Assembly (NCBI GenBank): GCA_013215525.1
Contig: JABSQY010000005.1
Span: 1-50,375 of the forward strand
DNA: 50,375 bases
Direction: 5' to 3'
From: Nanoarchaeales archaeon
GTDB taxonomy: Archaea > Nanobdellota > Nanobdellia > Woesearchaeales > UBA583
Part shown: piece by piece, positions 8,219-48,623 of the stretch
Position numbering within the stretch: the stretch's first letter is position 1
How the letters are laid out: each line of letters begins with the position of its first letter
Program-made: the position numbers and the translations under genes
The notes under the pieces: generated by a model
The model's database searches: none
What the model was told of the DNA's origin: nothing
The model's input: the letters and a program-made list of their open reading frames with translations, nothing else

Positions 8219-9367
8219 TTATCTATGTTTTTTTACCTCATTTTTCACCATAATTTGAAGATTTTTTAATAATTCTTGAGTCATTTTTGGAATATTCCAT
8301 TTTTCTTTTTCGTGTGAATGTAAATCCTCGTCAACGATTGAAGAATGAATTTCTTTATCAACTGAGATTATGTGGTTTCCATGTGAGAGTAATAATTTAA
8401 TGTCAACTTTTCTCATATGTGTTCCTATTGTATTCCCAATTGTTTTTACAGATAGTTTAAGATTATCATAATCTGACATTTTTGCAATTTTATCCATTGC
8501 TCTTCTTGAATAAATATCAATTAATTCATATTCATCTTCATATAACTTTCCTCCTCCAAGTATTTCTAAATGGTATTTTTCTACTTTATTATCTTCTCTA
8601 ATTAATCTAAATATATCTTTATATGAAAGCACAGTGTAGATTTCATTATCTTGATTACTTTGTGTTTCAGCCTCATTACCATTTGTTACAATGATTGAAA
8701 CTAATGATTTATTACTTAATATTTCAAGTGCATCTCGTATAGTTGAATGTTTAGATATTGTTAATGGTTTTTTATTGTAGATATTTGAAATTGGTAAATT
8801 TAATATTGAATCTTGTTTTTCACTAAAATATGAAGTTTTTTCATGATTACCATTTTTAAATAATTCATTTACAAGTAAATCCATTGGTCTAAGTTCTCCA
8901 ATAATTTGTAGTTTGTCAAGTACTGGAAGTAAATTTGTTTTTTTAGTTTTAAATAAAGATTTTGCAGAAGATATTTTATCATCTTCGTTTAATGCAAAAA
9001 TTTCGTGTCTACTGTTTGCTGAATCTATTGTTTGATTTAAAAAGGTATAATCATTATCTAATATTTCTTTAAATGCATCAGATAAATCATATATGTCATT
9101 TTCACTTGCTTTTATTACTAAATCGCCAGATTCTATTAATCTATTTAAACAATCACATTTAATTTTTGAATCACAATTTGAAAGCGGACGTTTGAGTGTT
9201 TTTAATTTCTCATTAACATCCTTTACATTTAAAGCAATTTCTCTAAAGTCCACATATGAGTTTCCATTTTCAAGGATAATATATCTTGAATTTTTTTTAT
9301 CATTTATTTCTTTTAAGAAATTTCCTACAGTGCTTTGCTCGTCGATTTTATAATAATTTTTTAACAT
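8219..9367 (-). CDS. Hypothetical protein, possible CBS-pair-like segments
   Basis: 382-aa ORF. The stretches TIRDALEILSNKSLVSIIVTN and YTVLSYKDIFRLI resemble CBS modules. Assignment is weak. Confidence 0.4.
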   Translation of the reverse strand: MLKNYYKIDEQSTVGNFLKEINDKKNSRYIILENGNSYVDFREIALNVKDVNEKLKTLKRPLSNCDSKIKCDCLNRLIESGDLVIKASENDIYDLSDAFKEILDNDYTFLNQTIDSANSRHEIFALNEDDKISSAKSLFKTKKTNLLPVLDKLQIIGELRPMDLLVNELFKNGNHEKTSYFSEKQDSILNLPISNIYNKKPLTISKHSTIRDALEILSNKSLVSIIVTNGNEAETQSNQDNEIYTVLSYKDIFRLIREDNKVEKYHLEILGGGKLYEDEYELIDIYSRRAMDKIAKMSDYDNLKLSVKTIGNTIGTHMRKVDIKLLLSHGNHIISVDKEIHSSIVDEDLHSHEKEKWNIPKMTQELLKNLQIMVKNEVKKHR

Positions 9368-34046: not shown

Positions 34047-34185
34047 TCACAAACTCCAATGGATTTTGGAATATATTGAAATTAAAAATTTCAACTAAAC
34101 TCATTTCCAAACCAATTGTTTGGTAAATTGAGATTCACAAACTCCAATGGATTTTGGAATATATTGAAATTAAAAATTTCAATAT
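34047..34185. repeat. Intergenic hairpin-rich repeat (one partial plus one full copy)
   Basis: The ~48-bp core cacaaactccaatggattttggaatatattgaaattaaaaatttcaa occurs at 34047-34094 and 34135-34184. The ccaaaccaattgtttgg module lies at 34100-34134. Same family as 32715-32799. Confidence 0.8.
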
Positions 34186-35375
34186 ATTTCGTTTTCAACA
34201 ATTGAATTTAATCCAATTGATGATACCATTCCTATAAATAATATTATTGTTAAGTTTGAAAAGTTTTCTTCAATCATTAATAATATTATTATTAATATTA
34301 TACTTAATATTATTTTTGTTCCGTGCATATATATTGTTCTTGTTAAAAGTGCGCGCATAAAGTTTTGACTATTTGTGTTATTATAAAATATTGATGTGAG
34401 TGTAATTGTTACAATGTTTGTGATTAAGTTTGCAAAAGTTTCGATTAGAAATAAGAATACACTTCCAAAAATAGTTAATATTGCTCTTAGATACCAACTT
34501 ATTGATAACATCTTTGAAGCTTTTTCTAGTACTTTTTTTTTAGATATTTTATCTATATATTTTTTAACTTTAAATAATGCAACTACAGTAATTAGTGAGA
34601 TTATTGTATATAATAATCCTAATACTGCAAAGTTTTCTTTTACAAATACAAAAATAATTATTGGCCAAATAAATGTAGATAATAATAATTCAACACCTTC
34701 TGCAACGTGTGAGATTTTACTTTGTTTATTAGTTTTTTTTCTAATTAAATCAATATAGTCTGAATGTTTAAATTTAATTTTTAAAAGTTTAATGTCTTCA
34801 GATATCATAAGAGGAACATTTGATAGTATTAATAGAAAAGTTCCAATTATTAAAAGGTTCCAATAACTTACATATTCTAAAAAGACTCCACCAATTATTG
34901 GAGCGACTGCGGTTAGTAATACTACAATTGTTTGTAATGTTCCTATTTGCTTTGTTCTATTTTCTCTACTTGAATTCATTATTACTTCTGCTTTAAATGA
35001 TATCCAAAATAGTGACATATAGATTCCTTGCGAAAGCCATAAAATGTGAAAAAATAACATGTTTTGAGTTATGTATTGTAATGATATTAAGTAGATAATG
35101 TAGAATGGTGTACTTAATAATAATGTATATTTTAGTCCAATTTTATTTATTATAGAAATTACAAGTGGCGCAGTTATTATGTATGTTGAAGAAATTCCAA
35201 TCGCGTATAATAGAATTAATATTATACTAAAATTGTTATGGTATAAATATACTGGAACAAAAATTCCTACAAGAGATGTTACAAATGCTACGAGCGCTCT
35301 GAAAAAATAAAGTTTTGTCATTTTATTTTTTAAGAGAGTTTCGTGTAGTAGATGTATGTGGGAATTGTGTAGCAT
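34179..35375 (-). CDS. MFS-type transporter paralogue 3
   Basis: 398 aa, collinear with paralogue 2 (IINKIGLKYTLLLS, GTLQ..., C-terminal NSIVENEIY). Confidence 0.75.
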   Translation of the reverse strand: MLHNSHIHLLHETLLKNKMTKLYFFRALVAFVTSLVGIFVPVYLYHNNFSIILILLYAIGISSTYIITAPLVISIINKIGLKYTLLLSTPFYIIYLISLQYITQNMLFFHILWLSQGIYMSLFWISFKAEVIMNSSRENRTKQIGTLQTIVVLLTAVAPIIGGVFLEYVSYWNLLIIGTFLLILSNVPLMISEDIKLLKIKFKHSDYIDLIRKKTNKQSKISHVAEGVELLLSTFIWPIIIFVFVKENFAVLGLLYTIISLITVVALFKVKKYIDKISKKKVLEKASKMLSISWYLRAILTIFGSVFLFLIETFANLITNIVTITLTSIFYNNTNSQNFMRALLTRTIYMHGTKIILSIILIIILLMIEENFSNLTIILFIGMVSSIGLNSIVENEIY

Positions 35376-35494: not shown

Positions 35495-35839
35495 ATGGTA
35501 GATTTTAGTAAAATTATGCATCATTTTCATATTAGGAAAAGGGTACATCAAAAATTGGAAAAGTTTCCAAGTACAGATTCTAAAAAAAGATTTTTAGATA
35601 AAATTATTTATTTTGTTGGAGTTTCAGGTCCAATTATGACAATCCCTCAAGTGTGGGAGATTTATTCTAAACATGATGCGACTGGAGTTAGTTTAGTGTC
35701 ATGGGGTTGGTATTTGGCGACTGCTTTTGTGTGGTTAACTTATGCAATTGTTCATAAAGAGAAACCGTTAATTATGACTTATGCGTTATGGATTTTAATT
35801 GAAATAGTTTTAGTAGTAGGGATAGTTTTATATTCTTAA
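35495..35839 (+). CDS. SemiSWEET / PQ-loop family small transporter
   Basis: 114 aa with three predicted TM helices and a PQ motif in the first (GPIMTIPQVWEIY). Confidence 0.55.
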   Translation: MVDFSKIMHHFHIRKRVHQKLEKFPSTDSKKRFLDKIIYFVGVSGPIMTIPQVWEIYSKHDATGVSLVSWGWYLATAFVWLTYAIVHKEKPLIMTYALWILIEIVLVVGIVLYS

Positions 35840-35870
35840 TTTTTTTATTTTTAATAATTTTTTAATATTT

Positions 35871-36040
35871 TTTCTCGCTGTGCGAAGTTTCCATATTGTG
35901 CCACTAGTACTATTTTTTAGTAGGTTGGCGAGATATAGATTCTACACCACCATACAAAAAAACTGCACTATTGACAAAATCTGAAAACGAAATTAAAATT
36001 AATCTAAAGTTAGCTATCGCTATGTTTTTATTTATTTTTT
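35871..36040 (+). ncRNA. Structured repeat element, copy A (divergent 3' module)
   Basis: 5' bulged hairpin TTT-ct-CGC-tgt-GCG-AAG. Closing stem CACTAGT/ACTATTG. Central hairpin GGTTGGCG-aga..tct-a-CACCACC. CTGAAAACGAA box. Terminal hairpin TAGC-tatc-GCTA plus T-run. Confidence 0.45.
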
Positions 36041-36069
36041 AAAAATTAGTTTTGTAAAATATATTATTT

Positions 36070-37026
36070 TTATTTTACAAGTTTAAGTTTATTACATAAA
36101 CTTTTCAAATCGCTTGTTAATGGTGCTACGAATTTGTGTTCTTTTCCATCGTATTCAAACTCTAATGTTTGCGCGTGTAGGAATTGTCTTTTTAAACTAT
36201 TTTCAAATACTTTGTTAATGTAATTATTACCATACATTTTGTCAGCAATGATTGGATGTCCGATTGATTTCATGTGTACTCTGATTTGATGTGTTAGTCC
36301 AGTTTCGATTTGAATCTCTACCATTGTTACTGTTTCTTCTTTGAATTCGTATTGGTCAATTACTTTGTAGTGTGATACAGATTTTTTTCCACCAGTTGGT
36401 ACAATTTTCATCTTTTCTTTCATTCCTTGTTCGTTTCTTTCCATTTGAACTTCAATAGTTCCTTCTGGATTGTCGAATTGTCCATCACATAATGCTAAAT
36501 ATTTTTTTGTAACTTTTCTTTCAGCGAATATCTTATTTAATTCTCGAAGTGTGATTTGGTTTTTTGCGCAAACTAAAACTCCTGATGTGTCTTTGTCTAG
36601 TCTGTGTACGTGGAAGTAATTAAAATCTTTAATGTCTCCTTTTTTATTTTTTAAGTATTGTAGGTGTAGTGATAATGATGTGTCGTTGTCTTGAGCTCCT
36701 TGAACTACAACACCTGCCTGCTTGTTTAGGATTAATAAATTTTGATCTTCATATATTGTATCAATTCCTAAATTTTTAGCTTCTTGGTTTTCTTCTGTGT
36801 TTACAGTTTGGTTTGCGCTTCTTAATTCAATGTCATCAAGCCAGCACTTTAACACGTCACCAGTTTTTAATTTAACTTCTCCTTTGATTTTTTTACCGTT
36901 TATTGTTAATCTTTTTTCTTTGATTAGGCGGTGTACCTTAGTGAATGGTACGTCTATCATTTTCTTTATGTAGCCCTTTGGGGATACTCCTTCGTAGTCT
37001 TTTGTTATTGTTATTTCGAATGCCAT
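36070..37026 (-). CDS. RluA-family pseudouridine synthase with N-terminal S4-like domain
   Basis: Catalytic motif HRLDKDTSGVLV, plus THQIRVH. 318 aa. Confidence 0.88.
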   Translation of the reverse strand: MAFEITITKDYEGVSPKGYIKKMIDVPFTKVHRLIKEKRLTINGKKIKGEVKLKTGDVLKCWLDDIELRSANQTVNTEENQEAKNLGIDTIYEDQNLLILNKQAGVVVQGAQDNDTSLSLHLQYLKNKKGDIKDFNYFHVHRLDKDTSGVLVCAKNQITLRELNKIFAERKVTKKYLALCDGQFDNPEGTIEVQMERNEQGMKEKMKIVPTGGKKSVSHYKVIDQYEFKEETVTMVEIQIETGLTHQIRVHMKSIGHPIIADKMYGNNYINKVFENSLKRQFLHAQTLEFEYDGKEHKFVAPLTSDLKSLCNKLKLVK

Positions 37027-37112
37027 TTTTATTATTGTTTAAGATTATCTTTGATAATCTTGCTATATATTAAAAAGAATACTTTTATGTTTAAAAGTGT
37101 GGTGTTTTTATG

Positions 37113-37292
37113 TTTTGCTCCTTGCTTTGCAGAGTTTCCATATTTGTACTATAGCACTAAAATTAAGACACAATTCGATATAGCAATGCTATTAATCGAG
37201 TGTCTGAATTTCAGCACTCTAGCACAAATCTGAAAACGAAGTTTTAATTGAGGCGAAAATTGGCTTCGCGTGTATATCTGCCTTTTTGTTTT
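37113..37292 (+). ncRNA. Structured repeat element, copy B (alternative central hairpin)
   Basis: 5' hairpin CTC-ct-TGC-ttt-GCA-GAG. Closing stem ATTTGT/ACAAAT. Central long hairpin AGACAC-aat-TCGAT-ATAGC-aat-GCTAT-ta-ATCGA-g-GTGTCT. 3' module AATCTGAAAACGAAG..GCGAA-aattggc-TTCGC..GCCTTTTTG. Confidence 0.55.
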
Positions 37293-38322
37293 ACTTAGTA
37301 TATATTTTCTTTTTCAGATTTTCATAGATTCCTTTTGTAAATTGTATCCAATTGTAATTTTTATCTTGAACTAATAAATCATAATGTATAATGTATTCTT
37401 CTGTATGTTTTTTGAATAATTCAATACTTGAATTTAATTCTTCTGGGTTTCTTGCGTTAAAATATAATATTAAATCGTAATCTCCAATAAAGTTTCCAGC
37501 ATAAAATATGTTTTGTAATTTTAAGAAAGGTTTCTTTAATATCTCATGTGGCGTGTTCTGTTTAATTCTTACTAATAAAAAATAAGTTACAAAACCTTGT
37601 TTTGATAAGTTTGGAATTGCTCCAAAATTAATTATTACTTTTTTTTCAATTAAATTTATAATTTTCTTTTTAACAGTATTTCTATCTATGTTTAATTCTC
37701 TACTTATGTTAATTAAAGACTCTTGTGGGTTTTGTGATAATATGTTTAATATCTCAATTTCTTTTAATGTTGGGTTATACTTTACAAAATCTTTTGATAC
37801 TGGAAAACTTTTTGTACATAATATATTACTAAATGAATGGTCTAGTTTTTTTTGAAACTTTGTATTTAAATTTAGAATTGGATTTAATTGCGTAAACTCT
37901 AAATCTGATAAATGCGTTAATATAATATATTCTTTTATTTTATTTTCACATAATTCAAATAGTTCTTCACGGATTTTATTTAAATGAAAACTATCTGTTG
38001 CATCTAGTATTATTTGTAAATCATATCTTCCAATAAATGAATTTGTCCACATAACATATTTATGTTTTGAAATTAGTTTAATTATGTCTTGCTTATTTTT
38101 AACTCCAATATCAAATCTTAATAATATGTGGTATCTTGTAAATCCTAAAACTCTTGAATCTATAAATAAAATGTTTTGTTTGATGTGTTTTTGTTTAATT
38201 AAATTATTTATTTTGTATGAAATTGTATCTTTTGATAATTTTAATGCTTTTGCAATTGTTGTAGTTGGAATTCTACAATTTTGAGCATATATTTCCATGA
38301 TTTGTAGGTCTTTTTTATCCAT
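37291..38322 (-). CDS. Tandem Lrp/AsnC-like transcriptional regulator (two HTH plus ligand-domain modules)
   Basis: Two repeats of the Lrp-type HTH (DLQIMEIYAQNCRIPTTTIAKALKLSKDTISYKINNL and EIEILNILSQNPQESLINISRELNIDRNTVKKKIINL), each followed by a ~70-aa domain. Confidence 0.7.
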   Translation of the reverse strand: MDKKDLQIMEIYAQNCRIPTTTIAKALKLSKDTISYKINNLIKQKHIKQNILFIDSRVLGFTRYHILLRFDIGVKNKQDIIKLISKHKYVMWTNSFIGRYDLQIILDATDSFHLNKIREELFELCENKIKEYIILTHLSDLEFTQLNPILNLNTKFQKKLDHSFSNILCTKSFPVSKDFVKYNPTLKEIEILNILSQNPQESLINISRELNIDRNTVKKKIINLIEKKVIINFGAIPNLSKQGFVTYFLLVRIKQNTPHEILKKPFLKLQNIFYAGNFIGDYDLILYFNARNPEELNSSIELFKKHTEEYIIHYDLLVQDKNYNWIQFTKGIYENLKKKIYTK

Positions 38323-38417
38323 TATTAGAATATTGTTTATTATATTATATAAATATTCCTCATTTTGATTAAATATGATTAATTGGTTTCTTATATTGTT
38401 TAGTACTCTTATTATTT

Positions 38418-39086
38418 ATGGAAATACAAAAAAACTTAATTGGAACTGTTTTTAAGACTGGATATAATGTTTTTAATGAAAAAGGATGTGTTATTGTTGG
38501 ATTAAGTCAAGGGAATTCTTATTTTAAAGTTGACTTAATTAATAATTTGTTAAATTTTTGTAAAAATAATTTTTCTTTTGTAAATATTATGAATGCAGAT
38601 AAACCTTCTATTTATACATACTTAGCTTTAGGACATAGTTTAGAAAAATCTGTTAAAAAAGCAAATAAAAATGGAAAATTATTAACTAATCATTGTAATA
38701 AGTTTATATCAAAAAGTTTAAGTTCAAAATTTAATTTATTTGATTGGGGAGTTGAAATTGATTCAAATAAAATTTATCAAGATGAATTAAAGAGATTAAA
38801 AGTACTTTTTGAATCTAACTTAAAATTTAAAGATGATGTTTGTAATACTACAAAATCTGTTTTAGAAAATAAAATACTTGATGTTTCTAAATTAGATTTA
38901 GGAATTTCAATTGGTGTTAATTATTTATTATGTGAACTTGCTTTTTTGTCAGTTTCTTGTGACTTATTTGGGATAGATAAAATTGCTTATATTTATCATA
39001 ATAGGTGGGAGGTGTTTGAGAACTTTGTGAATGGTGTTTATGATGGGAAGATAAATAAACATATTGGTTTTATTATTGTTAGGTAG
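38418..39086 (+). CDS. tRNA-dependent cyclodipeptide synthase (CDPS), NYH subfamily-like
   Basis: Collinear by eye with AlbC/YvmC. VGLSQGNSYF matches GIS(A/P)(G/F)NS(Y/R)F (catalytic Ser plus Asn). GVNYLLCELAFL matches NYVLAEAPLF (Tyr-x3-Glu). AYIYHNRW matches LCYH/LAYHRPW (Tyr-His). IGFIIV matches the C-terminal QGYLIV. 222 aa. Confidence 0.8.
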   Translation: MEIQKNLIGTVFKTGYNVFNEKGCVIVGLSQGNSYFKVDLINNLLNFCKNNFSFVNIMNADKPSIYTYLALGHSLEKSVKKANKNGKLLTNHCNKFISKSLSSKFNLFDWGVEIDSNKIYQDELKRLKVLFESNLKFKDDVCNTTKSVLENKILDVSKLDLGISIGVNYLLCELAFLSVSCDLFGIDKIAYIYHNRWEVFENFVNGVYDGKINKHIGFIIVR

Positions 39087-39100
39087 GCTTGTTTTTATTG

Positions 39101-39280
39101 TTTTGCTCCTCACTTTGTGGAGTTTCCACATTTGCACCAATGCACCAATTTTTTGTAGGTTGGCGAGATATAGATTCTACGCCACCGTACAAAAATTCGG
39201 CACCTTGATACAAATCTGAAAACGAAGTTTGATTTGAGGCGAAAATTGGCTTCGCTGTGTATGTCTGCCTTTTTGTTTTT
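39101..39280 (+). ncRNA. Structured repeat element, copy C (full length)
   Basis: 5' hairpin CTC-ct-CAC-ttt-GTG-GAG. Closing stem ATTTG..CAA / TTG..CAAAT. Central hairpin GGTTGGCG-aga-tatagat-tct-a-CGCCACC followed by GTACAAAA. The 3' module is nearly identical to copies B and D. T-run terminator-like end. Confidence 0.55.
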
Positions 39281-39376
39281 GTTTATTCGAATATATTTAT
39301 AACTATCTAATTATATTCATTTTGTTTGACAAGTTTTATATTATCTTTCCTTTACTTTGAAATAAATATGTTCAAA

Positions 39377-40198
39377 TTAATTAATTTTTTTAGTTTTATC
39401 TAAATTTAAATAATTATTTGATGATACTACTTTAGTTGTTGATTCTTTTTCTAGTTCTTTAATTGCATTTTTAGCAATATTGCCACCTTTTCTTGCTGAT
39501 TCTAAATTTTCGTTAAATCCTTGTGAATTCAAATCTTTAGATATTTGAGTTGTTGATGCTTCTCCAAGCATTGAAAATATTAATTCTAAGTCCGTCATAT
39601 GGTCTCTTAAATTTTGATTTGGTTTTATAATTCCTTTATGATTTTTATGTTCTTTAATGGATTTATCAAAGGTTGCTTTTGAAATTTCATTTGTTAAAAT
39701 TGCGAATTCTTGTGACTGTTCAATTCCTCTATTTTTCCATTCATCAGTTAATTCTTCTCTTACTGCTATTCCTCTTAATCTTTTTTCAATCCAACCTTTT
39801 GAATAACCTTTAACTTCATAATATTCTTTTACTCTTTGTTGTGCTAGTTCTGGATTTTCAATTTCTAATAGTCTATCTTCTCCAACTTGTGCTAACCATT
39901 GTTTAAATGGTTCTGCTTTTTTAGATGGAACTGATTGTATGATTCTTAAAAGTCCTTTTCTTGATACGCAATCTGTAACTCTCAACTTTCCATCAGTTGC
40001 TTTTAATTTCAACTGTCGACAATTTGTCGATAGTTCAACTCCTTGTTCTAATTCTCTTTTTTTTAATCTATACCAGTAATCTTTTGCATCTTTACTATCA
40101 GTTAATACTCTTATTATATCCACAACTGAAAAATACCATTCTTCATCATGCCACATTCTTCTTATTTTTTGGTTTTCAAAATTAATTATTTCTTCCAT
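39377..40198 (-). CDS. Bro-N domain / DinD-like (DNA-damage-inducible protein D family) protein
   Basis: Collinear by eye with E. coli DinD. N-terminal Bro-N-like segment (IRRMWHDEEWYFSVVDIIRVL) and NQNLRDHMTDLELIFSMLGEASTTQ matching NQKILDHMGSTELAANLFRATQTEE. Confidence 0.7.
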   Translation of the reverse strand: MEEIINFENQKIRRMWHDEEWYFSVVDIIRVLTDSKDAKDYWYRLKKRELEQGVELSTNCRQLKLKATDGKLRVTDCVSRKGLLRIIQSVPSKKAEPFKQWLAQVGEDRLLEIENPELAQQRVKEYYEVKGYSKGWIEKRLRGIAVREELTDEWKNRGIEQSQEFAILTNEISKATFDKSIKEHKNHKGIIKPNQNLRDHMTDLELIFSMLGEASTTQISKDLNSQGFNENLESARKGGNIAKNAIKELEKESTTKVVSSNNYLNLDKTKKIN

Positions 40199-40323
40199 TT
40201 TGGTTTAATTAATATTATAAATATTTAAAGTTTTATATATATTTATTTTATGTTGAAGTGAAACTATATATATGATATAAATCTGACGTTTATGTTACTT
40301 TGAAATATATTTTATTTTTTTAA

Positions 40324-40641
40324 TTACTCTAATATAAAATCTTTTTTTAAAGATTTATTATATCTAAAATTTGTTTGCTCAACATCAACTTTTCCTTTAT
40401 GATTGTAATAGTAATTTTTATCAGTAATAAAATTATTATATTTGAAAGTTTCAACATCTGCTCCAGTTAAAATATTATAATTATAATAAACATTAAATTT
40501 ATCTTTTCCATAATCTTTACTTAAGAACTGATATGACTCTGGATCAGTAATATTTTTCATTATTTTATTTTTAACATAAACATTATTATTGTCTTTTGCT
40601 ATATCATATACACTGTTTAAAATTATGAAAGACTTAGAATC
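40324..40641 (-). pseudogene. DKNYY-family repeat protein, 5'-truncated remnant
   Basis: The listed ORF (40324-40560) contains KDYGKDKFNVYY, GADVETFKY and TDKNYYY. By hand translation the frame stays open upstream of its ATG and still encodes DKNYY-like repeats (DSKSFIILNSVYDIAKDNNNVYVKNKI) up to ~40641, with no start codon, and ends at element copy D. Confidence 0.6.
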
Positions 40642-40720
40642 TGAAAACGAAGTTTGAAATTAGGCGAAAATTGGCTTCGCGTGTATGTCTGCCTTTTTGT
40701 TTATTCAAATATATTTATGG
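40638..40720 (+). repeat. Partial copy D of the structured element (3' module only)
   Basis: AATCTGAAAACGAAGTTTGAAATTAGGCGAAAATTGGCTTCGCGTGTATGTCTGCCTTTTTGTTTATTCAAATATATTTAT, near-identical to the 3' modules of B and C. An inverted 13-mer GCGAAGCCAATTT lies at 40771-40783. Confidence 0.7.
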
Positions 40721-40813
40721 AATGTACACTTACAAACAAAGCGAAACTATCAAAAGGATTTATTTATTTCGCGAAGCCAATTTGAATTAATTTTCCTTTA
40801 CTTTGGAATATGG

Positions 40814-42850
40814 TTATTTATCCCAGTTTATAACTTTTTCAAAATTAAACATTTGTTCATCAGATAATTTTTGTTTATTATAATTAAACTTTTGTCTATC
40901 GTACCAATTAACTAAAATCTTATCGTCATTATCTGAGTTTTTTCTATTTGGTAATCTATTATTGTTTTTAATAAATTCAATTAATAATTTATAGTTTTTA
41001 ATCCATAGTTCTAATTGACTATTTTTATTTATGATACTTTCCCAACTCCATATGGGTATGTTTTCCATTAATTCAATTTTTTTTTGAGTTAATTTATTTT
41101 GTCGAAATAAATATTTTTGTCTTTCAAACCAACTTACTATATCTTTGTCATCATTATTTACTTTTTTTCTATTTGGGAGTCTATTATTATCTTTTATAAA
41201 ATTAAACAAAGTATTATAATTTTTCATCCATAATTCTAATTGCCCTTTTTCACTTATTGAACTTTTCCAATTCCAAAGTTGAATATTTTCCATAAGTTCA
41301 ACTTGTTTTTTATTTAATTTATTTTGTTTGTATGAGTGCCTTTGTCTTTCAAACCAAAGTATTATTACTTTATCATCACTATTCTTTTTTTTTCTATTTG
41401 GGAGTCTATTATTATCTTTTATAAAATTAAACAAAGTATTATAATTTTTCATCCATAATTCAGATTTATTTCTTTCACTTCCCCAACTCCAAAAAGAGAT
41501 ATTTTCCATAAGATTAATTTGTTTCTTATCTAATTTATTTTGTCGAAATAAATATTTTTGTCTTTCAAACCAATATACTATAGATTTATCATCACTATTC
41601 TTTTTTTTTCTATTTGGAAGTCTCTTATTTTTTTCAACAAATTTTGAAAATATTTTATAATATTCACTCCAAGATTTATAACTTTCTTCTTTTCTATAAC
41701 CCCAAAACCATTTTTCTAAAGATTCAAGTAGATTTATTTGTTCGTCAGATAATTTTGAGTATGGGATTTGTCCTCTATAAACTCTTCTTTGTATCATACA
41801 CCAAACTCCTAATTTTTTTTCAGAAGGTATTTTAGAATCACCTTTAGGCATATTTCCTTGGTTTTTTGAAATAAAAATTAATAAATTATCATATATTTCT
41901 CCCCATTTATCTCTCCTTGTCCAATACCAACTAGGGAGAGACTCTAATAATTTTATTTTTTCATCAGATAATTTTTCTTTACTTTTTTCTCTTCCTGAAA
42001 AAATTCCTCTTTGTCTTTTAATCCAAGTATCTAATTTTTCTTCTGGTTTTGAAACTTCTTTAAATGGACTTCTATAATCTTGTTTAGTTGGATGTCTTTT
42101 ATATTTCTTAATAAATAGTTTTACTTTATTATAACTTATAAACCACATATCTTTTCTACTCCAAATCCAATGTTCTAAGTTTTCTAAATCATTAATGTTT
42201 TCTTTATTTAGTAAACCTTTTGTAAAATTTTGTCTTTGTATATTACACCACTTACCTAATTCGTGTTCTGTTTTATCTCTTGAAGCATTCGCAGGTGTTT
42301 TATTATTTAAGTTAGTGAATCTTTTTACAGCGTTATAAATAGTTTTCCAAGATTCTGATTTTATGTCTATAGATGCTCTTGTTTCAAAAGTTCCATCTGC
42401 TCTATATTTATAATAATATTTTATAATTCCTTTTATTATTTCTGTTCTTTCTTTAGAAATAATTTTCATTAATTTTTCATCTAATACTAATGTTTCATGC
42501 TCAGAAGTTAGTACTTTTCTTTTTTTAAATTGAATGTTTTTTTCAAAAGTAATTTCAGATTTATAATGTGCAACTTTATTTCTGATTTTTTGAATTTTTT
42601 CTATAGATTTCACAATTTTTTTAATTTCAACTTTATCAAAATTTTCAATTTTACAAATTTTTTGAAAAATTATAACTTTATTTTCAAAATTGAATTTTAA
42701 TAAAATTGTTTCTTGAAAAAATGAAGTTTTAGAAGTTCTTGGAGAAATATAATAATCTGAAATAAATGTTTCTAAATATGATTCAATATGTAATATTGTT
42801 GATAAAATTTCTCCAATTTTTTCATGAAATTCCTTTATCTTTTCTTTCAT
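40814..42850 (-). CDS. HEPN-like (Rx4H) N-terminal domain fused to seven helicase-associated (HA, PF03457-like) repeats
   Basis: The N-terminal ~110 aa are helical with KIRNKVAH (R-x4-H). Seven ~70-aa repeats then follow the pattern W..Y..L..F......P........LG/IV.W..RQR......L....I..LE....W.W. Confidence 0.65.
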   Translation of the reverse strand: MKEKIKEFHEKIGEILSTILHIESYLETFISDYYISPRTSKTSFFQETILLKFNFENKVIIFQKICKIENFDKVEIKKIVKSIEKIQKIRNKVAHYKSEITFEKNIQFKKRKVLTSEHETLVLDEKLMKIISKERTEIIKGIIKYYYKYRADGTFETRASIDIKSESWKTIYNAVKRFTNLNNKTPANASRDKTEHELGKWCNIQRQNFTKGLLNKENINDLENLEHWIWSRKDMWFISYNKVKLFIKKYKRHPTKQDYRSPFKEVSKPEEKLDTWIKRQRGIFSGREKSKEKLSDEKIKLLESLPSWYWTRRDKWGEIYDNLLIFISKNQGNMPKGDSKIPSEKKLGVWCMIQRRVYRGQIPYSKLSDEQINLLESLEKWFWGYRKEESYKSWSEYYKIFSKFVEKNKRLPNRKKKNSDDKSIVYWFERQKYLFRQNKLDKKQINLMENISFWSWGSERNKSELWMKNYNTLFNFIKDNNRLPNRKKKNSDDKVIILWFERQRHSYKQNKLNKKQVELMENIQLWNWKSSISEKGQLELWMKNYNTLFNFIKDNNRLPNRKKVNNDDKDIVSWFERQKYLFRQNKLTQKKIELMENIPIWSWESIINKNSQLELWIKNYKLLIEFIKNNNRLPNRKNSDNDDKILVNWYDRQKFNYNKQKLSDEQMFNFEKVINWDK
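40830..41700 (-). repeat. Tandem coding repeats (~216-225 bp period) encoding HA repeats 4-7
   Basis: A stretch of more than 60 nt is identical by eye at 41168 and 41393 (tctatttgggagtctattattatcttttataaaattaaacaaagtattataatttttcatccataattc), a 225-bp period. Flanking units are more diverged. Confidence 0.8.
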
Positions 42851-43092
42851 AAATTATTCTAAAAATTAATATTTATAATACTATTGTCTAAAATTGATAT
42901 AAAATTTCAATTTAAAGGAAACTAATTCCAGACTTTAGAAAAAATCCACCAAATTGTTTTAAAACTAGAAAATTACAAGTAACACATATTATGCCAACTT
43001 TGAGTTGGTATATCTTGAAAAAAGTTTACTTTTTGAGTGTTATTATTATTATTATTCTGAAAAACCAACTTTAGAATTAAAACTTTAAATTT

Positions 43093-43917
43093 CTATAAAT
43101 CAAAAGATTCTGTTGAGTTTAATTGTTCTTTTATGAATTTATTTAAATCTTCGATTAAATTTGTTGTGGATTTTGTATATTTATCAACATCTTTTCCGCT
43201 CATTTGGATTTGATTTTTTTCTACTTGTTTATACAACTCATACATTTGTTTTATTTGGACACCGTATTTTTCTATTGGAGTTCCTTTTAATTTTACTTTA
43301 AATATTTCAGGGATTTCTTTTGGACTACTTGGAGTTATTTTCTTTGCCATTAATGCTGCGTGTGCCATGTCAACTGTTGCGTAATATAAATCTAGAAAAC
43401 TGTTTTGCATATGTTTGTGTGTTTCCTCGAGCAGTGTTTCTGCTCTTGCTTTGTAGTTGTTAATTGCTTCAATTGTTGGTCGCATTCTACCAATTTCTAA
43501 TAAATATTGTAGTGGCGCGATTAAATCTCTATCAAATAATGGAGTTCCGTGTCTTAAAATGTTTGTTAAAACTGGGTCTCCTTTTCTACTCATGTCCCAT
43601 AATGCTGATAAATTAATTGTCATTAAATGGATTTTTCCTTTTGCAAGGTCTGTGTTTAGTTTGTTTGTAATAATTCTGTACGCTTCTCTTAATTCATCTG
43701 TTACAAAAACTGTAACGTTATTTAATACAACTAAAATGTCAATGTCTGAATCTTTGTTTAATGTGTCGTTTGTATTAGATCCGAAAAGCACAATACTTCG
43801 AACTAGTTCTCCCATTTCTTTAATTAAATTTTTTGAAAATTCTCTTGTAATTCTTAAATTTTCAATGTGATAGTTTTCTTCGTTTGAAGTTTGTTTTTGA
43901 TTTTGTTTGAAGTCCAT
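43093..43917 (-). CDS. Minimal nucleotidyltransferase domain fused to a HEPN-like helical domain (KNTase-like architecture)
   Basis: NTase motif VLFGSNTNDTLNKDSDIDILVV. C-terminal helical domain YYATVDMAHAALMAKKITPSSPKEIPEIF. Paralogous to 47047-48417. Confidence 0.7.
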   Translation of the reverse strand: MDFKQNQKQTSNEENYHIENLRITREFSKNLIKEMGELVRSIVLFGSNTNDTLNKDSDIDILVVLNNVTVFVTDELREAYRIITNKLNTDLAKGKIHLMTINLSALWDMSRKGDPVLTNILRHGTPLFDRDLIAPLQYLLEIGRMRPTIEAINNYKARAETLLEETHKHMQNSFLDLYYATVDMAHAALMAKKITPSSPKEIPEIFKVKLKGTPIEKYGVQIKQMYELYKQVEKNQIQMSGKDVDKYTKSTTNLIEDLNKFIKEQLNSTESFDL

Positions 43918-44622: not shown

Positions 44623-45381
44623 TTGATTATATTTATGTTTATTAAAAATATTAAATTTAATTATGTTTACGTACGTGATTCAGGTGTTAAAATAGATTCA
44701 AATGTACATCCATTTAATTTAGATGTTTTTAATTTTTTTAAGAAAGGAGGAGAATTAATTTTTAATTCAAATGTTACTTTTTTTGTTGGAGAAAATGGAG
44801 CAGGTAAAACTTCATTTATTGAAGCGTTCGCTTATAAACTTGGTTTAAATAAATTTGGTGGATCTAAAAACTTTATTTTAAATGAAAATGAAAAACCAGT
44901 TTTATCTGATTTTTTGTCTATTGTTAAAGCTAATAATGCGTTATCAGGTGATGCTTTTTTTTTTAGAGCTGAAAATTTTTTTAATTTACAAGATGATTTA
45001 GATAAATATCTTAATACTTCTAGTACGTATACTGGTAATTCTAAAAATTTTCGAGAAATGTCACATGGTCAAGGTTTTAAAGCTTTTTTCGAGAACAGGC
45101 TTGGTGATGAAGGAATATATATATTTGATGAACCTGAATCTGCTTTATCAGTTCAATCACAAATAGAATTTTTATTTTTATTAAAGGAGTTATCAAAATT
45201 AAATAATCAAATTTTTATTGTTACACATTCGCCTATTATTTTATCGTTTCCGAACGCTGAGATATATGATGTGTCGCTGGACTTTGAGAAAGTAGATTAT
45301 GAGGAGACAACGCAGTTTTGTGATATGAAGAATTTTATTAATAATGTTGATAGATATAGATATGATTTAAAAAAAGATTAA
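44623..45381 (+). CDS. Stand-alone ABC-type (SMC/RecF-like) ATPase, COG3910-like
   Basis: Walker A GENGAGKTS, signature-like MSHGQG, Walker B IYIFDEPESALS, H-loop VTHSP. The listed start is TTG; the first ATG is at 44635. Confidence 0.75.
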   Translation: MIIFMFIKNIKFNYVYVRDSGVKIDSNVHPFNLDVFNFFKKGGELIFNSNVTFFVGENGAGKTSFIEAFAYKLGLNKFGGSKNFILNENEKPVLSDFLSIVKANNALSGDAFFFRAENFFNLQDDLDKYLNTSSTYTGNSKNFREMSHGQGFKAFFENRLGDEGIYIFDEPESALSVQSQIEFLFLLKELSKLNNQIFIVTHSPIILSFPNAEIYDVSLDFEKVDYEETTQFCDMKNFINNVDRYRYDLKKD

Positions 45382-46602: not shown

Positions 46603-46941
46603 ATGAGCGATAATAAAGTAACCGATGAGCCTTTATCATTTGAAAAGGAGTTAAGTAGATTACCACCTGAAATTGTTACAATTTTAAAGAAGAAAGAAAA
46701 AAAGTTTTCTAGTTTTATAGAACTTTTAAAAAAAAAATCTAAAGGAAAGGACATGGGAGTGTTCTTAACACCACATATAGAGTTAAAAAATAATGTTCCA
46801 ACACCTGATTTTAATAAGTTAACACTTAATTTTTTATATGATGATTTTGATAAACCTTTACCTGAGTTTAATCCTAAAATGTTCTTTGAGAAAGAATTTG
46901 ATTCAGTTTTAGAAATTGTAACTATTAAAGATAAAGATTGA
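46603..46941 (+). CDS. Hypothetical protein; possibly the N-terminal part of a 604-codon ORF continuing through TGA 46939-46941
   Basis: 112-aa ORF with a TATA-like box ~27 nt upstream. It is in the same frame as 47047-48417, and the 35 codons between are open (hand translation QEQSKYVLKEDKNITFFPTTVQHLRENCFDGIYDD). Confidence 0.5.
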   Translation: MSDNKVTDEPLSFEKELSRLPPEIVTILKKKEKKFSSFIELLKKKSKGKDMGVFLTPHIELKNNVPTPDFNKLTLNFLYDDFDKPLPEFNPKMFFEKEFDSVLEIVTIKDKD

Positions 46942-47046
46942 CAAGAACAATCTAAATATGTTTTAAAGGAAGATAAAAATATTACATTTTTTCCAACAAC
47001 AGTTCAACATTTACGTGAGAATTGTTTTGATGGAATTTATGATGAT

Positions 47047-48417
47047 ATGAAAAGATTAGGGTCTTCTATTGTTTATTATGATTCTCGTGGTTTTATTTCT
47101 GCGTTAAAAACTATTGATATTCATAGAAATATGTTACTTCAAAAGTTTGAGAAGTATGTTGTTGTATATGCTGGAGCTGGAAGTTGGTTACGTGGTGAGA
47201 AGTCAAATGATTTTGATGTTTTTGTAGTGATTGATGATACAGATGTGAAGCGTATGCCTCGTATGCAGGTTAAAGATCAATTAACTAAAATTATTTGGCA
47301 AATGAGTCGTGAGATTGCGCAAGTTACAGGAATTCAAATCCATATTCAAGTTTATTTATTAACAGATTTCTGGGATGCGTTAAAAGATGCACATCCAGTT
47401 ATGTTTACATTTTTACGTGATGGTGTTCCATTTTATGATAGAGGAATTTATGGAGCTTGGAAAGAGTTATTAAAATTAGGAAAAATTAAGCCTTCAGCGG
47501 AAGCGATTGATTTACATATGAATGCTGGAACTCAATTAGTTGATAGGGCGCGTAAGATGTTTAATGAGATTGCAATGAATGATGTGTATTACGCATTTTT
47601 AAATCCTGCGCAAGCTGTTTTGATGATGAAAGGTTTTAATCCTACAACACCAAAAGAGACACTTAAGATTTTCAAAGAAGTTTTAGTTGATAAAGATAAA
47701 GTTATTTCACAAAAAGAGTTTGATAATTTTGAAGAAGCTGTTAAATTATTTAAATCACTTGAACACGACCAAGAGAAAAAAGTTTCAGGGAAAGATTTAG
47801 ATAGGATGCTTAATAATGCTGATAAGTTTTTATCAACTATTAAAAAAATGTTTGACCAAATTACTATTGATAAAACAAAAGATTCTTTTAATAATACATA
47901 CACTGAATTTATTACTCAATTATTACAATTACCAAACTTTGAAAAATTATCTGAAAAAGATTTAGTTAAAAATTTTGAAGCAGAGTATATTACATCTGGA
48001 AAATTACCTGATTTTACAAAAGAATCTATTAAATCTATTAAGAAAGCAAAGGTTGATTTTGATAAGGATAAGATTACATCAATTGAAGTTAATAAAGTTT
48101 TAAAGGAAATTAGAAATTTATTATCTGAATTAAAGAGTTTACGTGATACTAACATTTTAACTGAAGCAAATTCTAAAAAGCTTGCATTGATTTACGATGG
48201 TGCAAAGAGTTGCGACTTATTTATGTATGATAATAAGATTTATTTAATTGATTTTCCTAATGATAAAACTTATGAGTTTAAATCTCAAAAATTCATTGAG
48301 TCTAAGACTAAACGTGAAGATTTAGCGGATTCAAGTAAACTTCAAGATATGGAACTTACTGGAATGATTATTGATTGTGTTAAAGATATACTAAAAGCTA
48401 AATCTTTAAAGATTTAA
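47047..48417 (+). CDS. Nucleotidyltransferase/HEPN-like fusion protein with extended helical C-terminus (paralogue of 43093-43917)
   Basis: NTase motif YAGAGSWLRGEKSNDFDVFVVIDD. FLRDGVPFYDRG..LGKIKPSAEAID and YYAFLNPAQAVLMMKGFNPTTPKETLKIF are collinear with the paralogue. Confidence 0.7.
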   Translation: MKRLGSSIVYYDSRGFISALKTIDIHRNMLLQKFEKYVVVYAGAGSWLRGEKSNDFDVFVVIDDTDVKRMPRMQVKDQLTKIIWQMSREIAQVTGIQIHIQVYLLTDFWDALKDAHPVMFTFLRDGVPFYDRGIYGAWKELLKLGKIKPSAEAIDLHMNAGTQLVDRARKMFNEIAMNDVYYAFLNPAQAVLMMKGFNPTTPKETLKIFKEVLVDKDKVISQKEFDNFEEAVKLFKSLEHDQEKKVSGKDLDRMLNNADKFLSTIKKMFDQITIDKTKDSFNNTYTEFITQLLQLPNFEKLSEKDLVKNFEAEYITSGKLPDFTKESIKSIKKAKVDFDKDKITSIEVNKVLKEIRNLLSELKSLRDTNILTEANSKKLALIYDGAKSCDLFMYDNKIYLIDFPNDKTYEFKSQKFIESKTKREDLADSSKLQDMELTGMIIDCVKDILKAKSLKI

Positions 48418-48438
48418 TCTTTTTATTTTATTTTATTT

Positions 48439-48623
48439 TCGAAGTACGTTTTGAAACGAATGCTTGCAGTCACTACGTAAACTTTGTTCGGGACATAGTG
48501 AACAAGTTCACGAAGTTTTGTCCAGAGCACTCACTTTTTTAGAATCGCGCAAGTATATATCTTAGTCGCGATTCAAAAAGCAAGCACTCTGAACAAAAAT
48601 CTTCCTAAGTTCATCGTTTTTTG
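48439..48623 (+). ncRNA. GC-rich structured element E (candidate ncRNA; shares only the 3' flank with elements B-D)
   Basis: Nested helices TGCTTGC (48461-67)/GCAAGCA (48580-86), GGAC (48491-94)/GTCC (48520-23), GTGAAC-aa-GTTCAC (48498-48511) and GAATCGCG (48542-49)/CGCGATTC (48567-74). T-run at 48615-48623, then GTTTATTCGAACATAT as after copies C and D. Confidence 0.35.

What the first reader, a model, noticed from the sequence alone, without database searches (positions are those of the whole stretch)
35871..40720. Multi-copy ~180-nt structured element with compensatory base changes at gene-cassette boundaries
Three full copies (A 35871-36040, B 37113-37292, C 39101-39280) and one 3'-only copy (D 40638-40720) of a GC-rich element sit in AT-rich spacers. 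They separate the cassettes RluA | tandem-Lrp+CDPS | DinD+DKNYY remnant | HEPN-HA. The 5' bulged hairpin keeps its shape while the sequence changes: A TTT-ct-CGC/GCG-AAG, B CTC-ct-TGC/GCA-GAG, C CTC-ct-CAC/GTG-GAG. That gives several double compensatory substitutions, plus a U-G pair in copy A that works only on the + strand. A closing stem (ATTTG../..CAAAT) encloses a central hairpin. A and C share this hairpin; B carries a different but equally well-paired one (AGACAC..GTGTCT), which looks like a module swap. The 3' module (AATCTGAAAACGAAG, hairpin GCGAA-aattggc-TTCGC, GCC-TTTTTG) is almost identical in B, C and D. I do not recognise it as tRNA, C/D or H/ACA sRNA, SRP RNA or RNase P RNA. No transposase, integrase, reverse transcriptase or TnpB-like ORF is adjacent. 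Selection on structure plus the boundary position suggests either a paralogous ncRNA family or an RNA/DNA recombination-site element that organises this accessory island.
Basis: seen in the sequence. Interest (0 to 1): 0.78.

Follow-up and report, generated by a model that had tools for sequence, protein, structure and literature searches.

The report
Strand-specific long-hairpin repeat family, DPANN archaeon

Summary
The repeats are real. A, B and C are full copies and D is a truncated one. I found three more members: G (window 48495-48613), its orthologue G' in a related genome, and E on another contig from the same samples.

The core is not a closing stem around a central hairpin. It is one continuous, imperfect hairpin of about 45 bp. 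These hairpins are the four most stable 110-nt folds in the 50-kb contig.

In all six hairpins the fold is far better on the minus strand. There are 34 G:U pairs on minus against 3 on plus, which runs against the local compositional bias. Pairing is kept through many two-sided changes, including between orthologues. The 52-nt apex of G and G' is identical although 29% of synonymous sites differ.

There is no Rfam match, no tRNA, and no transposase or integrase on the contig. The box order that defines attC is not met.

The long hairpin is an optional module. An orthologous site in a relative has the flanking frame without it, next to AACTT(C/A)G. Every window copy lies where gene content differs from close relatives.

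Best reading: a functional, lineage-restricted palindromic element, most likely acting as minus-strand RNA. A single-stranded-DNA recombination role is not excluded.

The parts
35866..36045 (-). Copy A. On the minus strand, in order: A/E-type leader module, long hairpin (35887-35988), small hairpin. It lies between RluA(-) and the PQ-loop gene(+).
   Evidence: Energy is -36.6 kcal/mol on minus and -20.7 on plus. G:U pairs: 5 on minus, 0 on plus.
37105..37300 (-). Copy B. Leader and module 1 (37227-37300), long hairpin (37134-37237) with its own apex, small hairpin (37117-37134). The leader supplies the last codons and the stop codon of the Lrp-like gene. The copy sits directly upstream of the RluA promoter region.
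   Evidence: Energy is -48.0 kcal/mol on minus and -29.4 on plus. G:U pairs: 5 on minus, 0 on plus.
39093..39300 (-). Copy C. Leader and module 1 (hairpin GGCGAAAATTGGCTTCGC at 39238-39255), junction AAATCTGAAAACGAAG (39212-39227), long hairpin (39122-39223), small hairpin (39106-39122). It lies between CDPS(+) and Bro-N/DinD(-).
   Evidence: Energy is -50.8 kcal/mol on minus and -28.3 on plus. This is the most stable 110-nt fold on the contig.
40638..40720 (-). Copy D. It keeps the leader, module 1 and the first ~12 nt of the hairpin arm (GTTTTCAGATTC). The rest was deleted together with the 5' part of the DKNYY gene.
40768..40783 (+). Inverted fragment of the module-1 hairpin (CGCGAAGCCAATTT), in the opposite orientation to D.
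   Evidence: (weak nhmmer match at 40770-40783).
48495..48613 (-). Copy G. Long hairpin (48510-48606), small hairpin GTGAAC-TT-GTTCAC, and a C/D-type leader (TTCGAATAAACAAAAAAC). It lies downstream of the 604-aa gene. Shared gene order with the relatives ends here.
   Evidence: Found by a model built without it (R1: 39.5 bits, E about 2e-7). Energy is -51.5 kcal/mol on minus and -34.8 on plus. G:U pairs: 6 on minus, 0 on plus. Also.
37027..43092 (.). Accessory block: Lrp-like, CDPS, Bro-N/DinD (PADLOC PDC-S13), DKNYY remnant, HA-repeat protein. It is absent between NTP_transf_2 and RluA in relatives. Copies B, C and D lie within it or at its RluA-side edge.

Best explanation
This is a lineage-restricted, modular family of intergenic elements. 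The core is a long imperfect hairpin of 100-160 nt that is selected to fold on the window's minus strand.

Read on that strand, the element consists of:
1. An A-rich leader.
2. An optional short hairpin (module 1).
3. The conserved junction AACTT(C/A)G.
4. The long hairpin, which has a conserved base, a stem constrained only for pairing, and an apex constrained in sequence.
5. A small 6-bp hairpin.

I think it most likely acts as a minus-strand RNA. It could be a stand-alone small RNA or a module at the end or start of neighbouring transcripts. Its apex would be a specific binding site and its long stem a stability or processing determinant.

The hairpin module has been gained or lost next to AACTT(C/A)G, in the manner of a MITE. 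The dispersed copies recombine, which would explain the mosaic copies and their position at gene-content breakpoints.

Shown: the family, the fold, the strand asymmetry, the covariation, the presence/absence at an orthologous site, and the coincidence with breakpoints. Inferred: that the folded molecule is RNA, and what it does.
For: Fold stability:
- The hairpins are the four most stable 110-nt windows on the contig, at -36.6 to -50.8 kcal/mol. The minus-strand background is -10.8 +/- 5.1. The tRNA scores -35.7.

Strand:
- G:U pairs on minus versus plus: A 5/0, B 5/0, C 6/0, E 8/2, G 6/0, G' 4/1.
- The background runs the other way. The plus strand is G/T-rich beyond coding effects, and ordinary windows fold better on plus.

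Covariation:
- On six sequences, 87.6% of cells are paired, against 40-50% when partners are slid. 34 of 50 pairs have two-sided changes, and 0 of 500 shuffles reach the observed values.
- On an unfitted MAFFT alignment of four copies, 82% are paired, 17 pairs have two-sided changes, and 0 of 500 shuffles reach the observed values.
- One G:U pair is invariant in 6/6 copies. Another position is always a wobble pair but flips between GU and UG.

Orthologues G and G':
- In the 15 pairs of the lower stem there are 5 two-sided compensatory changes and 2 wobble steps.
- The 52-nt apex is 100% identical although third-codon identity in RluA is only 71%.

Modularity:
- L027 ~8729-8810 has module 1 and the small hairpin joined as AAACTTCG|CAAAGCGGAG with no long hairpin. 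This is the site orthologous to B.
- L025 has AAAACTTAGC where G' and G carry a hairpin.

Possible promoter:
- A TATA-like AAATATAT lies about 20-27 nt upstream of the first conserved G on the minus strand in B, C and D.
Against: - There are no expression data.
- With DNA energy parameters the same strand asymmetry holds, so single-stranded DNA is equally compatible.
- The plus strand carries a conserved T-run (GCCTTTTTGTTTATTCG) at the plus-sense 3' end of seven of the eight loci that carry the frame (not E). It resembles the terminator after tRNA-Glu. The minus strand has no consistent T-run after the element.
- Only six hairpins from two or three closely related genomes are available. The six-sequence alignment was fitted to the model. 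Tests on this few sequences are weak.
- All window copies sit at gene-content breakpoints, which fits a DNA-level role at least as well.
Confidence: 0.45

Rival explanations
1. The element is a structure-specific DNA site. The minus strand folds as single-stranded DNA and is recognised by a recombinase or transposase encoded elsewhere in the genome. This would be analogous to attC, REPIN/RAYT or IS200/IS605 ends. The enzyme would insert, excise or exchange gene blocks at AACTT(C/A)G.
For: - Every window copy lies where gene content differs from close relatives. B, C and D are in or at the edge of the inserted 6-kb block. A replaces a 224-aa gene present in relatives. G is where shared gene order ends.
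- The hairpin is present or absent next to a conserved AACTT(C/A)G at orthologous sites.
- Imperfect 5-8-nt direct repeats flank the hairpin.
- Copies are mosaic: hairpin types are combined with different flank types, and G carries a C/D-type leader.
- A remnant of an A-type apex sits at the other edge of the L027 insertion.
- The strand asymmetry holds with DNA parameters.
Against: - No recombinase, transposase or HUH protein is encoded in 50 kb.
- The attC box order is not met.
- Genes between copies are in mixed orientations.
- G and G' show a sequence-invariant apex with a compensating lower stem. This is the reverse of attC, where the base is the conserved part.
- D's truncation is an ordinary deletion running into a gene, not a clean half-site.
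- No population variant with different cassettes was seen in 10 contigs.
Confidence: 0.25
2. The element is a bidirectional terminator or insulator at gene ends. The hairpin and the T-runs would stop or stabilise transcripts arriving from either side. No separate RNA or DNA activity would be involved.
For: - Three of the six full copies (A, C, E) lie between convergent genes. Five of the seven loci with a module 1 or long hairpin (A, B, C, D, E, G, G') follow a gene on each strand.
- A conserved plus-strand T-run resembles the tRNA terminator.
- T4-T7 runs occur in the ascending arm on the minus strand.
Against: - Archaeal termination does not need hairpins, let alone stems of 45 bp.
- This reading does not explain the sequence-invariant apex, the strict strand asymmetry, or the absence of the element at the same gene ends in relatives.
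- The terminator scan found none at the copies.
Confidence: 0.12
3. This is the first reader's version: a plus-strand ncRNA of about 180 nt, with a 5' bulged hairpin, a central hairpin and a 3' terminator module.
For: - The plus-strand T-run lies at the 3' end.
- Copy A has a U-G pair that works only on plus.
- AT-rich, TATA-like sequence lies upstream on plus.
Against: - Plus-strand folds are weak, with z-scores of -1.2 to -2.0 for whole copies.
- The long stem would carry 4-8 C.A mismatches and almost no G:U pairs: 3 on plus against 34 on minus.
- Four of those mismatch positions are conserved.
Confidence: 0.08
4. These are decaying selfish palindromes (old MITEs) with no host function. The arms would be kept complementary by templated quasi-palindrome correction.
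For: - MITEs are common in some DPANN genomes; about 105 per Mb are reported for a Woesearchaeal genome (PMC11602168).
- The hairpin shows an insertion/deletion difference at an orthologous site, with flanking direct repeats.
Against: - Templated correction should not produce a 34:3 strand bias in wobble pairs against the mutational skew.
- It should not keep 52 nt invariant while 29% of synonymous sites differ.
- Copies within one genome are 60-80% identical, so they are not a recent burst.
Confidence: 0.1

Closest known systems
REPIN / REP and ERIC-type intergenic palindromic repeats of bacteria
   Same: - They are imperfect hairpins of about 100 nt in intergenic DNA, often at 3' ends of genes.
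- The fold depends on the strand.
- Copies are dispersed and mark variable junctions.
- They can act as RNA stability elements.
   Different: - There is no sequence relationship.
- There is no GTAG-type REP head and no RAYT gene on the contig.
- The host is archaeal.
- Very few copies are known, and they are diverged.
- The apex is constrained in sequence between species.
MITEs (non-autonomous transposons), reported as abundant in some DPANN genomes (PMC11602168)
   Same: - The inverted repeats span the whole arm.
- Short direct repeats flank the element.
- The element is present or absent at an orthologous site.
- It encodes no protein.
   Different: - All copies sit next to the same AACTT(C/A)G, so the flanking repeat is not an ordinary target duplication.
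- The copies are not near-identical.
- No parent IS was seen.
- Pairing and the apex are under purifying selection.
Integron attC sites, including archaeal ones (PMC9668308)
   Same: - The function of the hairpin depends on which strand folds.
- The base is conserved and the centre variable among paralogues.
- The position is at the junctions of accessory gene blocks.
- Arrays without a nearby integrase (CALINs) are common.
   Different: - The base reads GTTT(T/C)CA...TG(G/A)AAAC rather than RYYYAAC...GTTRRRY.
- The stem is near-perfect and about 45 bp long, with no extrahelical bases of the attC kind.
- The genes between copies are in mixed orientations.
- There is no IntI.
Retron msr-msd ncRNA
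   Same: - It has a long, variable hairpin.
- The 5' flank can pair with the 3' tail: A UUUC:GAAA; B and C CUUC:GGAG; G and G' GAAC:GUUC.
   Different: - There is no reverse transcriptase on the contig.
- Several copies lie within one locus.
- There is no Rfam match.

Membership tests
Any Rfam 15 family (tRNA, C/D, H/ACA, SRP, RNase P, OMEGA/tracr-like and others) | A covariance-model match at the gathering score | tested here: not met
   At the gathering score only the 23S rRNA 3' end and tRNA-Glu match. At E<=10 on 35500-41000 there are only sub-threshold plant miRNA-precursor hits, on the minus strand, which reflect generic hairpin shape. L027 8400-9000 gave nothing. ARAGORN finds only tRNA-Glu.
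Integron attC | R'' box RYYYAAC at the 5' base and R' box GTTRRRY at the 3' base of the hairpin | tested here: not met
   The hairpin base is 5'-GTTTTCAG...TGGAAAC-3' on minus and 5'-GTTTCCA...TGAAAAC-3' on plus. The order is GTT...AAC on both strands, the reverse of attC.
Integron attC | An integron integrase nearby, or an array of co-oriented cassette ORFs each followed by a site | tested here: not met
   No tyrosine recombinase is found among all ORFs of at least 100 aa on the contig. The genes between copies are in mixed orientations. An integrase elsewhere in the genome cannot be tested.
Integron attC | Strand-selective folding with extrahelical bases and an unpaired central spacer | tested here: inconclusive
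   There is a strong strand bias, but it comes from G:U or G:T pairs. There is a conserved 1x1 purine-purine mismatch after base pair 7. There are no attC-type extrahelical bases.
MITE | Terminal inverted repeats | tested here: met
   The arms are complementary over about 45 bp.
MITE | A target-site duplication that differs from site to site | tested here: inconclusive
   The flanks are imperfect direct repeats of 5-8 nt: AAACTTCG / AAACTCTG, AAACTCCA and AAACTTCG. The same sequence flanks every copy and is also present at the empty sites.
MITE | Many near-identical copies and a related autonomous IS | tested here: not met
   There are five copies in 50 kb and they are 60-80% identical. No transposase is on the contig. 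The rest of the genome could not be scanned.
MITE | Insertion polymorphism at orthologous sites | tested here: met
   B has the hairpin and the orthologous L027 site has the frame without it. G and G' have it while L025 has the empty AAAACTTAGC.
REP/REPIN | A conserved REP head and an associated RAYT (Y1 HUH) gene | tested here: not met
   There is no Y1_Tnp hit on the contig and no REP-like head in the sequence. Genome-wide presence is not testable with these tools.
IS200/IS605-derived PATE | Separate left-end and right-end subterminal hairpins, and TnpA or TnpB nearby | tested here: not met
   There is a single long hairpin and no TnpA or TnpB.
Retron | A reverse transcriptase gene adjacent to the ncRNA | tested here: not met
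   No RVT domain is found on the contig.
Intrinsic-type terminator | A G+C-rich stem immediately followed by a T-run | tested here: not met
   The scan finds no such site at any copy. The plus-strand T-run lies 10-60 nt beyond the nearest stem.

The most novel reading that the evidence does not exclude
The hairpins could be the sites of a structure-specific, strand-specific recombination system in DPANN archaea that is not of the attC type. An enzyme encoded elsewhere would act at AACTT(C/A)G on the folded minus strand, and this would assemble and reshuffle accessory and defence gene blocks. In effect it would be an independent archaeal analogue of integron cassette capture.
Probability: 0.15. 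Interest if true: 0.85.

Novelty: new variant of a known kind. Interest (0 to 1): 0.55.

Why it matters
DPANN archaea have tiny genomes, and almost nothing is known about their non-coding elements. This element is unannotated, clearly under selection, and tied to the places where gene content changes between sister lineages.

If it is an RNA, it adds a structured RNA class to a group where few are known. If it is a DNA site, it points to a way of assembling accessory and defence islands without an integron.

The corrected strand and anatomy, and the covariance model built here, make both readings directly testable on metatranscriptomes and on other Nanoarchaeales genomes.

Tried and rejected
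- A pattern scan of GTDB representative genomes gave only 8 chance hits in bacteria.
- A pattern scan of JGI metagenome contigs gave 7 chance hits in GC-rich contigs without hairpins.
- Two scans of viral contigs gave nothing or one chance hit, L017.
- blastn against the phage and plasmid collections found no match.
- A chimeric query made of six-frame peptides of the elements, run against the 5.8-billion protein set to fish for ORFs called across copies, found no hit.
- Relatives found through RluA (L025, L026, L028, L036, L038) have no copy.
- The nearest Bro-N homologues are only 75% identical. One of them led to copy E.
- A weak covariance-model hit at 47579-47684 is not a member; its fold has z = -0.7.
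- A possible half-site after NTP_transf_2 (GGTTTTTCAGAAT, ~43050) has no significant similarity to the elements.
- An archaeal bulge-helix-bulge intron was considered for the optional hairpin and rejected. The junctions cannot form 3-nt bulges around a 4-bp helix.
- C/D and H/ACA boxes were looked for by eye and not found.
- The 224-aa genes next to E and next to RluA in L025 are unrelated.
- L039 looked like a variant context but is collinear with the window.

Full report
**Source and setting.** The window is a complete 50,375-bp contig of an NCBI MAG labelled Nanoarchaeales archaeon. It has about 26% G+C. It carries housekeeping genes: the 23S rRNA end, tRNA-Glu, MutL and a purine-synthesis cluster. 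Near-identical contigs occur in several ENA and Logan assemblies of one sample series.

**The observation.** The repeats are there.
- Alignment and motif searches confirm full copies A (35866-36045), B (37105-37295) and C (39093-39285). D (40638-40712) is a partial copy.
- The 18-mers AATCTGAAAACGAAGTTT and GGCGAAAATTGGCTTCGC occur 4 and 3 times, against 0.27 and 0 expected.
- No Rfam family and no tRNA match the copies.
- No transposase, integrase or reverse transcriptase is encoded anywhere on the contig.

**Anatomy and strand.**
- It folds far better on the minus strand. A: -36.6 vs -20.7 kcal/mol. B: -48.0 vs -29.4. C: -50.8 vs -28.3.
- For whole copy C the z-score is -6.2 on minus and -2.0 on plus.
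- The cause is wobble pairing. The minus-strand stems hold 5, 5 and 6 G:U pairs and the plus-strand stems hold none.
- In a sliding 110-nt scan of the whole contig, these hairpins and G are the four most stable folds. They are 5-8 SD from the minus-strand background and more stable than the tRNA.
- The bias runs against local composition. The plus strand is G/T-rich beyond coding effects, and ordinary windows fold better on plus (-13.7 vs -10.8).

**More members.** Scans of GTDB genomes and JGI metagenomes gave only chance hits, so I reached relatives through proteins.
- nhmmer found copy E on another contig from the same samples (L030 14626-14836). It has a 160-nt branched hairpin and a leader like A's.
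- A covariance model built from A, B, C and a trimmed E (R1) found G at window 48495-48613(-). It also found G' at L027 2939-3065, at 39.5 and 39.7 bits. L027 is from GCA_000484915.1, whose RluA is 88% identical.
- G and G' lie downstream of the same 604/605-aa gene, so they are orthologues.
- They show the same strand bias. G: -51.5 vs -34.8 kcal/mol, with 6 vs 0 G:U pairs. G': -37.8 vs -26.7, with 4 vs 1. E has 8 vs 2.
- The total is 34 G:U pairs on the model strand against 3 on the other.

**Selection.**
- On an unfitted MAFFT alignment of four copies, 82% of cells pair. 17 pairs have two-sided changes and no shuffle in 500 reaches the observed values. Sliding the partners drops pairing to 35-48%.
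- On the six-member, model-fitted alignment, 87.6% of cells pair and 34 of 50 pairs have two-sided changes. Again 0 of 500 shuffles reach the observed values.
- One G:U pair is invariant in 6/6 copies. Another position is always a wobble pair but flips orientation. Both lie in a GUGC/GUGC tandem-wobble motif.
- Between orthologues G and G', the 15 lower-stem pairs show five two-sided compensatory changes, two wobble steps and one break.
- The apical 52 nt of G and G' are identical, although third-codon positions of identical RluA residues are only 71% identical. A neutral stretch of that length would stay identical with probability of about 1e-8 (my calculation from that rate).
- So the stem is constrained for pairing and the apex for sequence. 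This is not decaying junk.
- With so few sequences, formal covariation statistics remain weak.

**Modularity.** Read on the minus strand, a full copy consists of:
1. An A-rich leader.
2. Module 1, a short hairpin (GCGAA...TTCGC).
3. AACTT(C/A)G.
4. The long hairpin.
5. A 6-bp small hairpin.

The modules combine differently in different copies:
- At the site orthologous to B, just upstream of the RluA promoter region, L027 has module 1 and the small hairpin fused as AAACTTCG|CAAAGCGGAG, with no long hairpin.
- L025 has AAAACTTAGC at the place where G' and G carry a hairpin.
- Each hairpin is flanked by an imperfect 5-8-nt direct repeat of that junction.
- The 5' flank can also pair with the 3' tail: A UUUC:GAAA; B and C CUUC:GGAG; G and G' GAAC:GUUC.
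- Hairpin types (A/C, B, E, G) are combined with different leaders. B, C, D and the L027 frame share one leader, and A and E share another. G carries a C/D-type leader.
- D lost its hairpin in a deletion that also removed the 5' part of the DKNYY gene.

**Position.**
- In relatives with 80-85% identical RluA, NTP_transf_2 abuts RluA directly. L027 has a DUF2238 gene at that spot.
- The window instead has the 6-kb block 37027-43092, with B, C and D in it or at its RluA-side edge.
- A sits where relatives have a 224-aa gene or its remnant.
- Shared gene order with the relatives ends at G.
- So every window copy coincides with a difference in gene content.
- However, G' in L027 lies in conserved gene order. 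No cassette polymorphism was seen among the population contigs.

**RNA or DNA.**
- With DNA energy parameters the strand asymmetry persists, so thermodynamics cannot decide.
- On the minus strand, a TATA-like AAATATAT precedes the first conserved G by about 20-27 nt in B, C and D. There is no consistent T-run after the element.
- On the plus strand, GCCTTTTTGTTTATTCG resembles the terminator after tRNA-Glu.
- I favour a minus-strand RNA. Wobble-tolerant compensatory evolution combined with a sequence-specific apex is the usual signature of a functional RNA, and the folding strand has the composition of the leading-strand template. That last point is my inference from the skew.
- I hold this view at only about 0.45. 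I give a single-stranded-DNA recombination or transposition site 0.25.

**Comparison with known kinds.**
- The element works most like bacterial REPIN/ERIC-type palindromic repeats or a domesticated MITE. MITEs are reported as abundant in some DPANN genomes (PMC11602168).
- It is not an attC. Archaeal attCs have the canonical structure (PMC9668308). Here the base reads GTT...AAC, not ...AAC...GTT.... There is no IntI and the genes are not co-oriented.
- It is not a retron, a PATE or any Rfam family.
- I class it as a new variant of a known kind.

**Verdict.** The feature is real, selected and unannotated. Interest 0.55.

Noticed in passing
window 40799-41676 (gene 40814-42850, minus strand): The HA-domain gene contains tandem repeats of about 225 nt. 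Its length differs between population contigs: 678 aa here and 603 aa in L009.
   Followed up: partly
window 34047-34198: A 64-nt direct repeat (89% identical) with an internal 25-nt inverted repeat lies between two paralogous MFS transporter genes.
   Followed up: no
window 35255-35370, plus strand: A strong plus-strand hairpin (-36.6 kcal/mol, z = -4.1) spans the start codon of the MFS gene 34179-35375(-). It is unrelated to the element family.
   Followed up: partly
window 46603-48417: The 604-aa ORF is interrupted by a stop codon here (46603-46941 and 47047-48417). It is intact in the 99.3% identical contig L039. This is either a pseudogene or an assembly error.
   Followed up: partly
window 39377-40198(-), 43093-43917(-), 44623-45381(+): The Bro-N/DinD protein matches the PADLOC candidate defence family PDC-S13 (E = 1e-115). 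NTP_transf_2 matches PDC-S09. The small AAA_15/21 ATPase resembles GajA, AriA and PtuA. The neighbourhood looks like a defence or accessory hotspot.
   Followed up: partly
window 37291-39086: A cyclodipeptide synthase gene lies divergent from a tandem HTH/Lrp-like regulator in a DPANN archaeon. The regulator's last codons and stop codon are supplied by the leader of copy B.
   Followed up: partly
window 40768-40783: A 14-nt perfect inverted copy of the module-1 hairpin (CGCGAAGCCAATTT) lies about 85 nt from D. It looks like a remnant of a copy in the opposite orientation.
   Followed up: partly
L027 7841-7865: TGGTTGGTGTGAGAATCTATTTCTC matches the apex of the A-type hairpin at 22 of 25 positions. 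It lies at the NTP_transf_2-side edge of the DUF2238 insertion.
   Followed up: partly
window 48418-48495 and L027 3040-3081: Extra conserved sequence lies beyond G and G' (CGTTTCAAAACGTACTTCGAAAA). The window also has a ~55-nt insert there with further small hairpins.
   Followed up: no
whole window: Coding-strand GC skew is +0.30 for plus-strand genes and +0.09 for minus-strand genes. This indicates a compositional asymmetry of the replication type, with the plus strand rich in G and T.
   Followed up: partly
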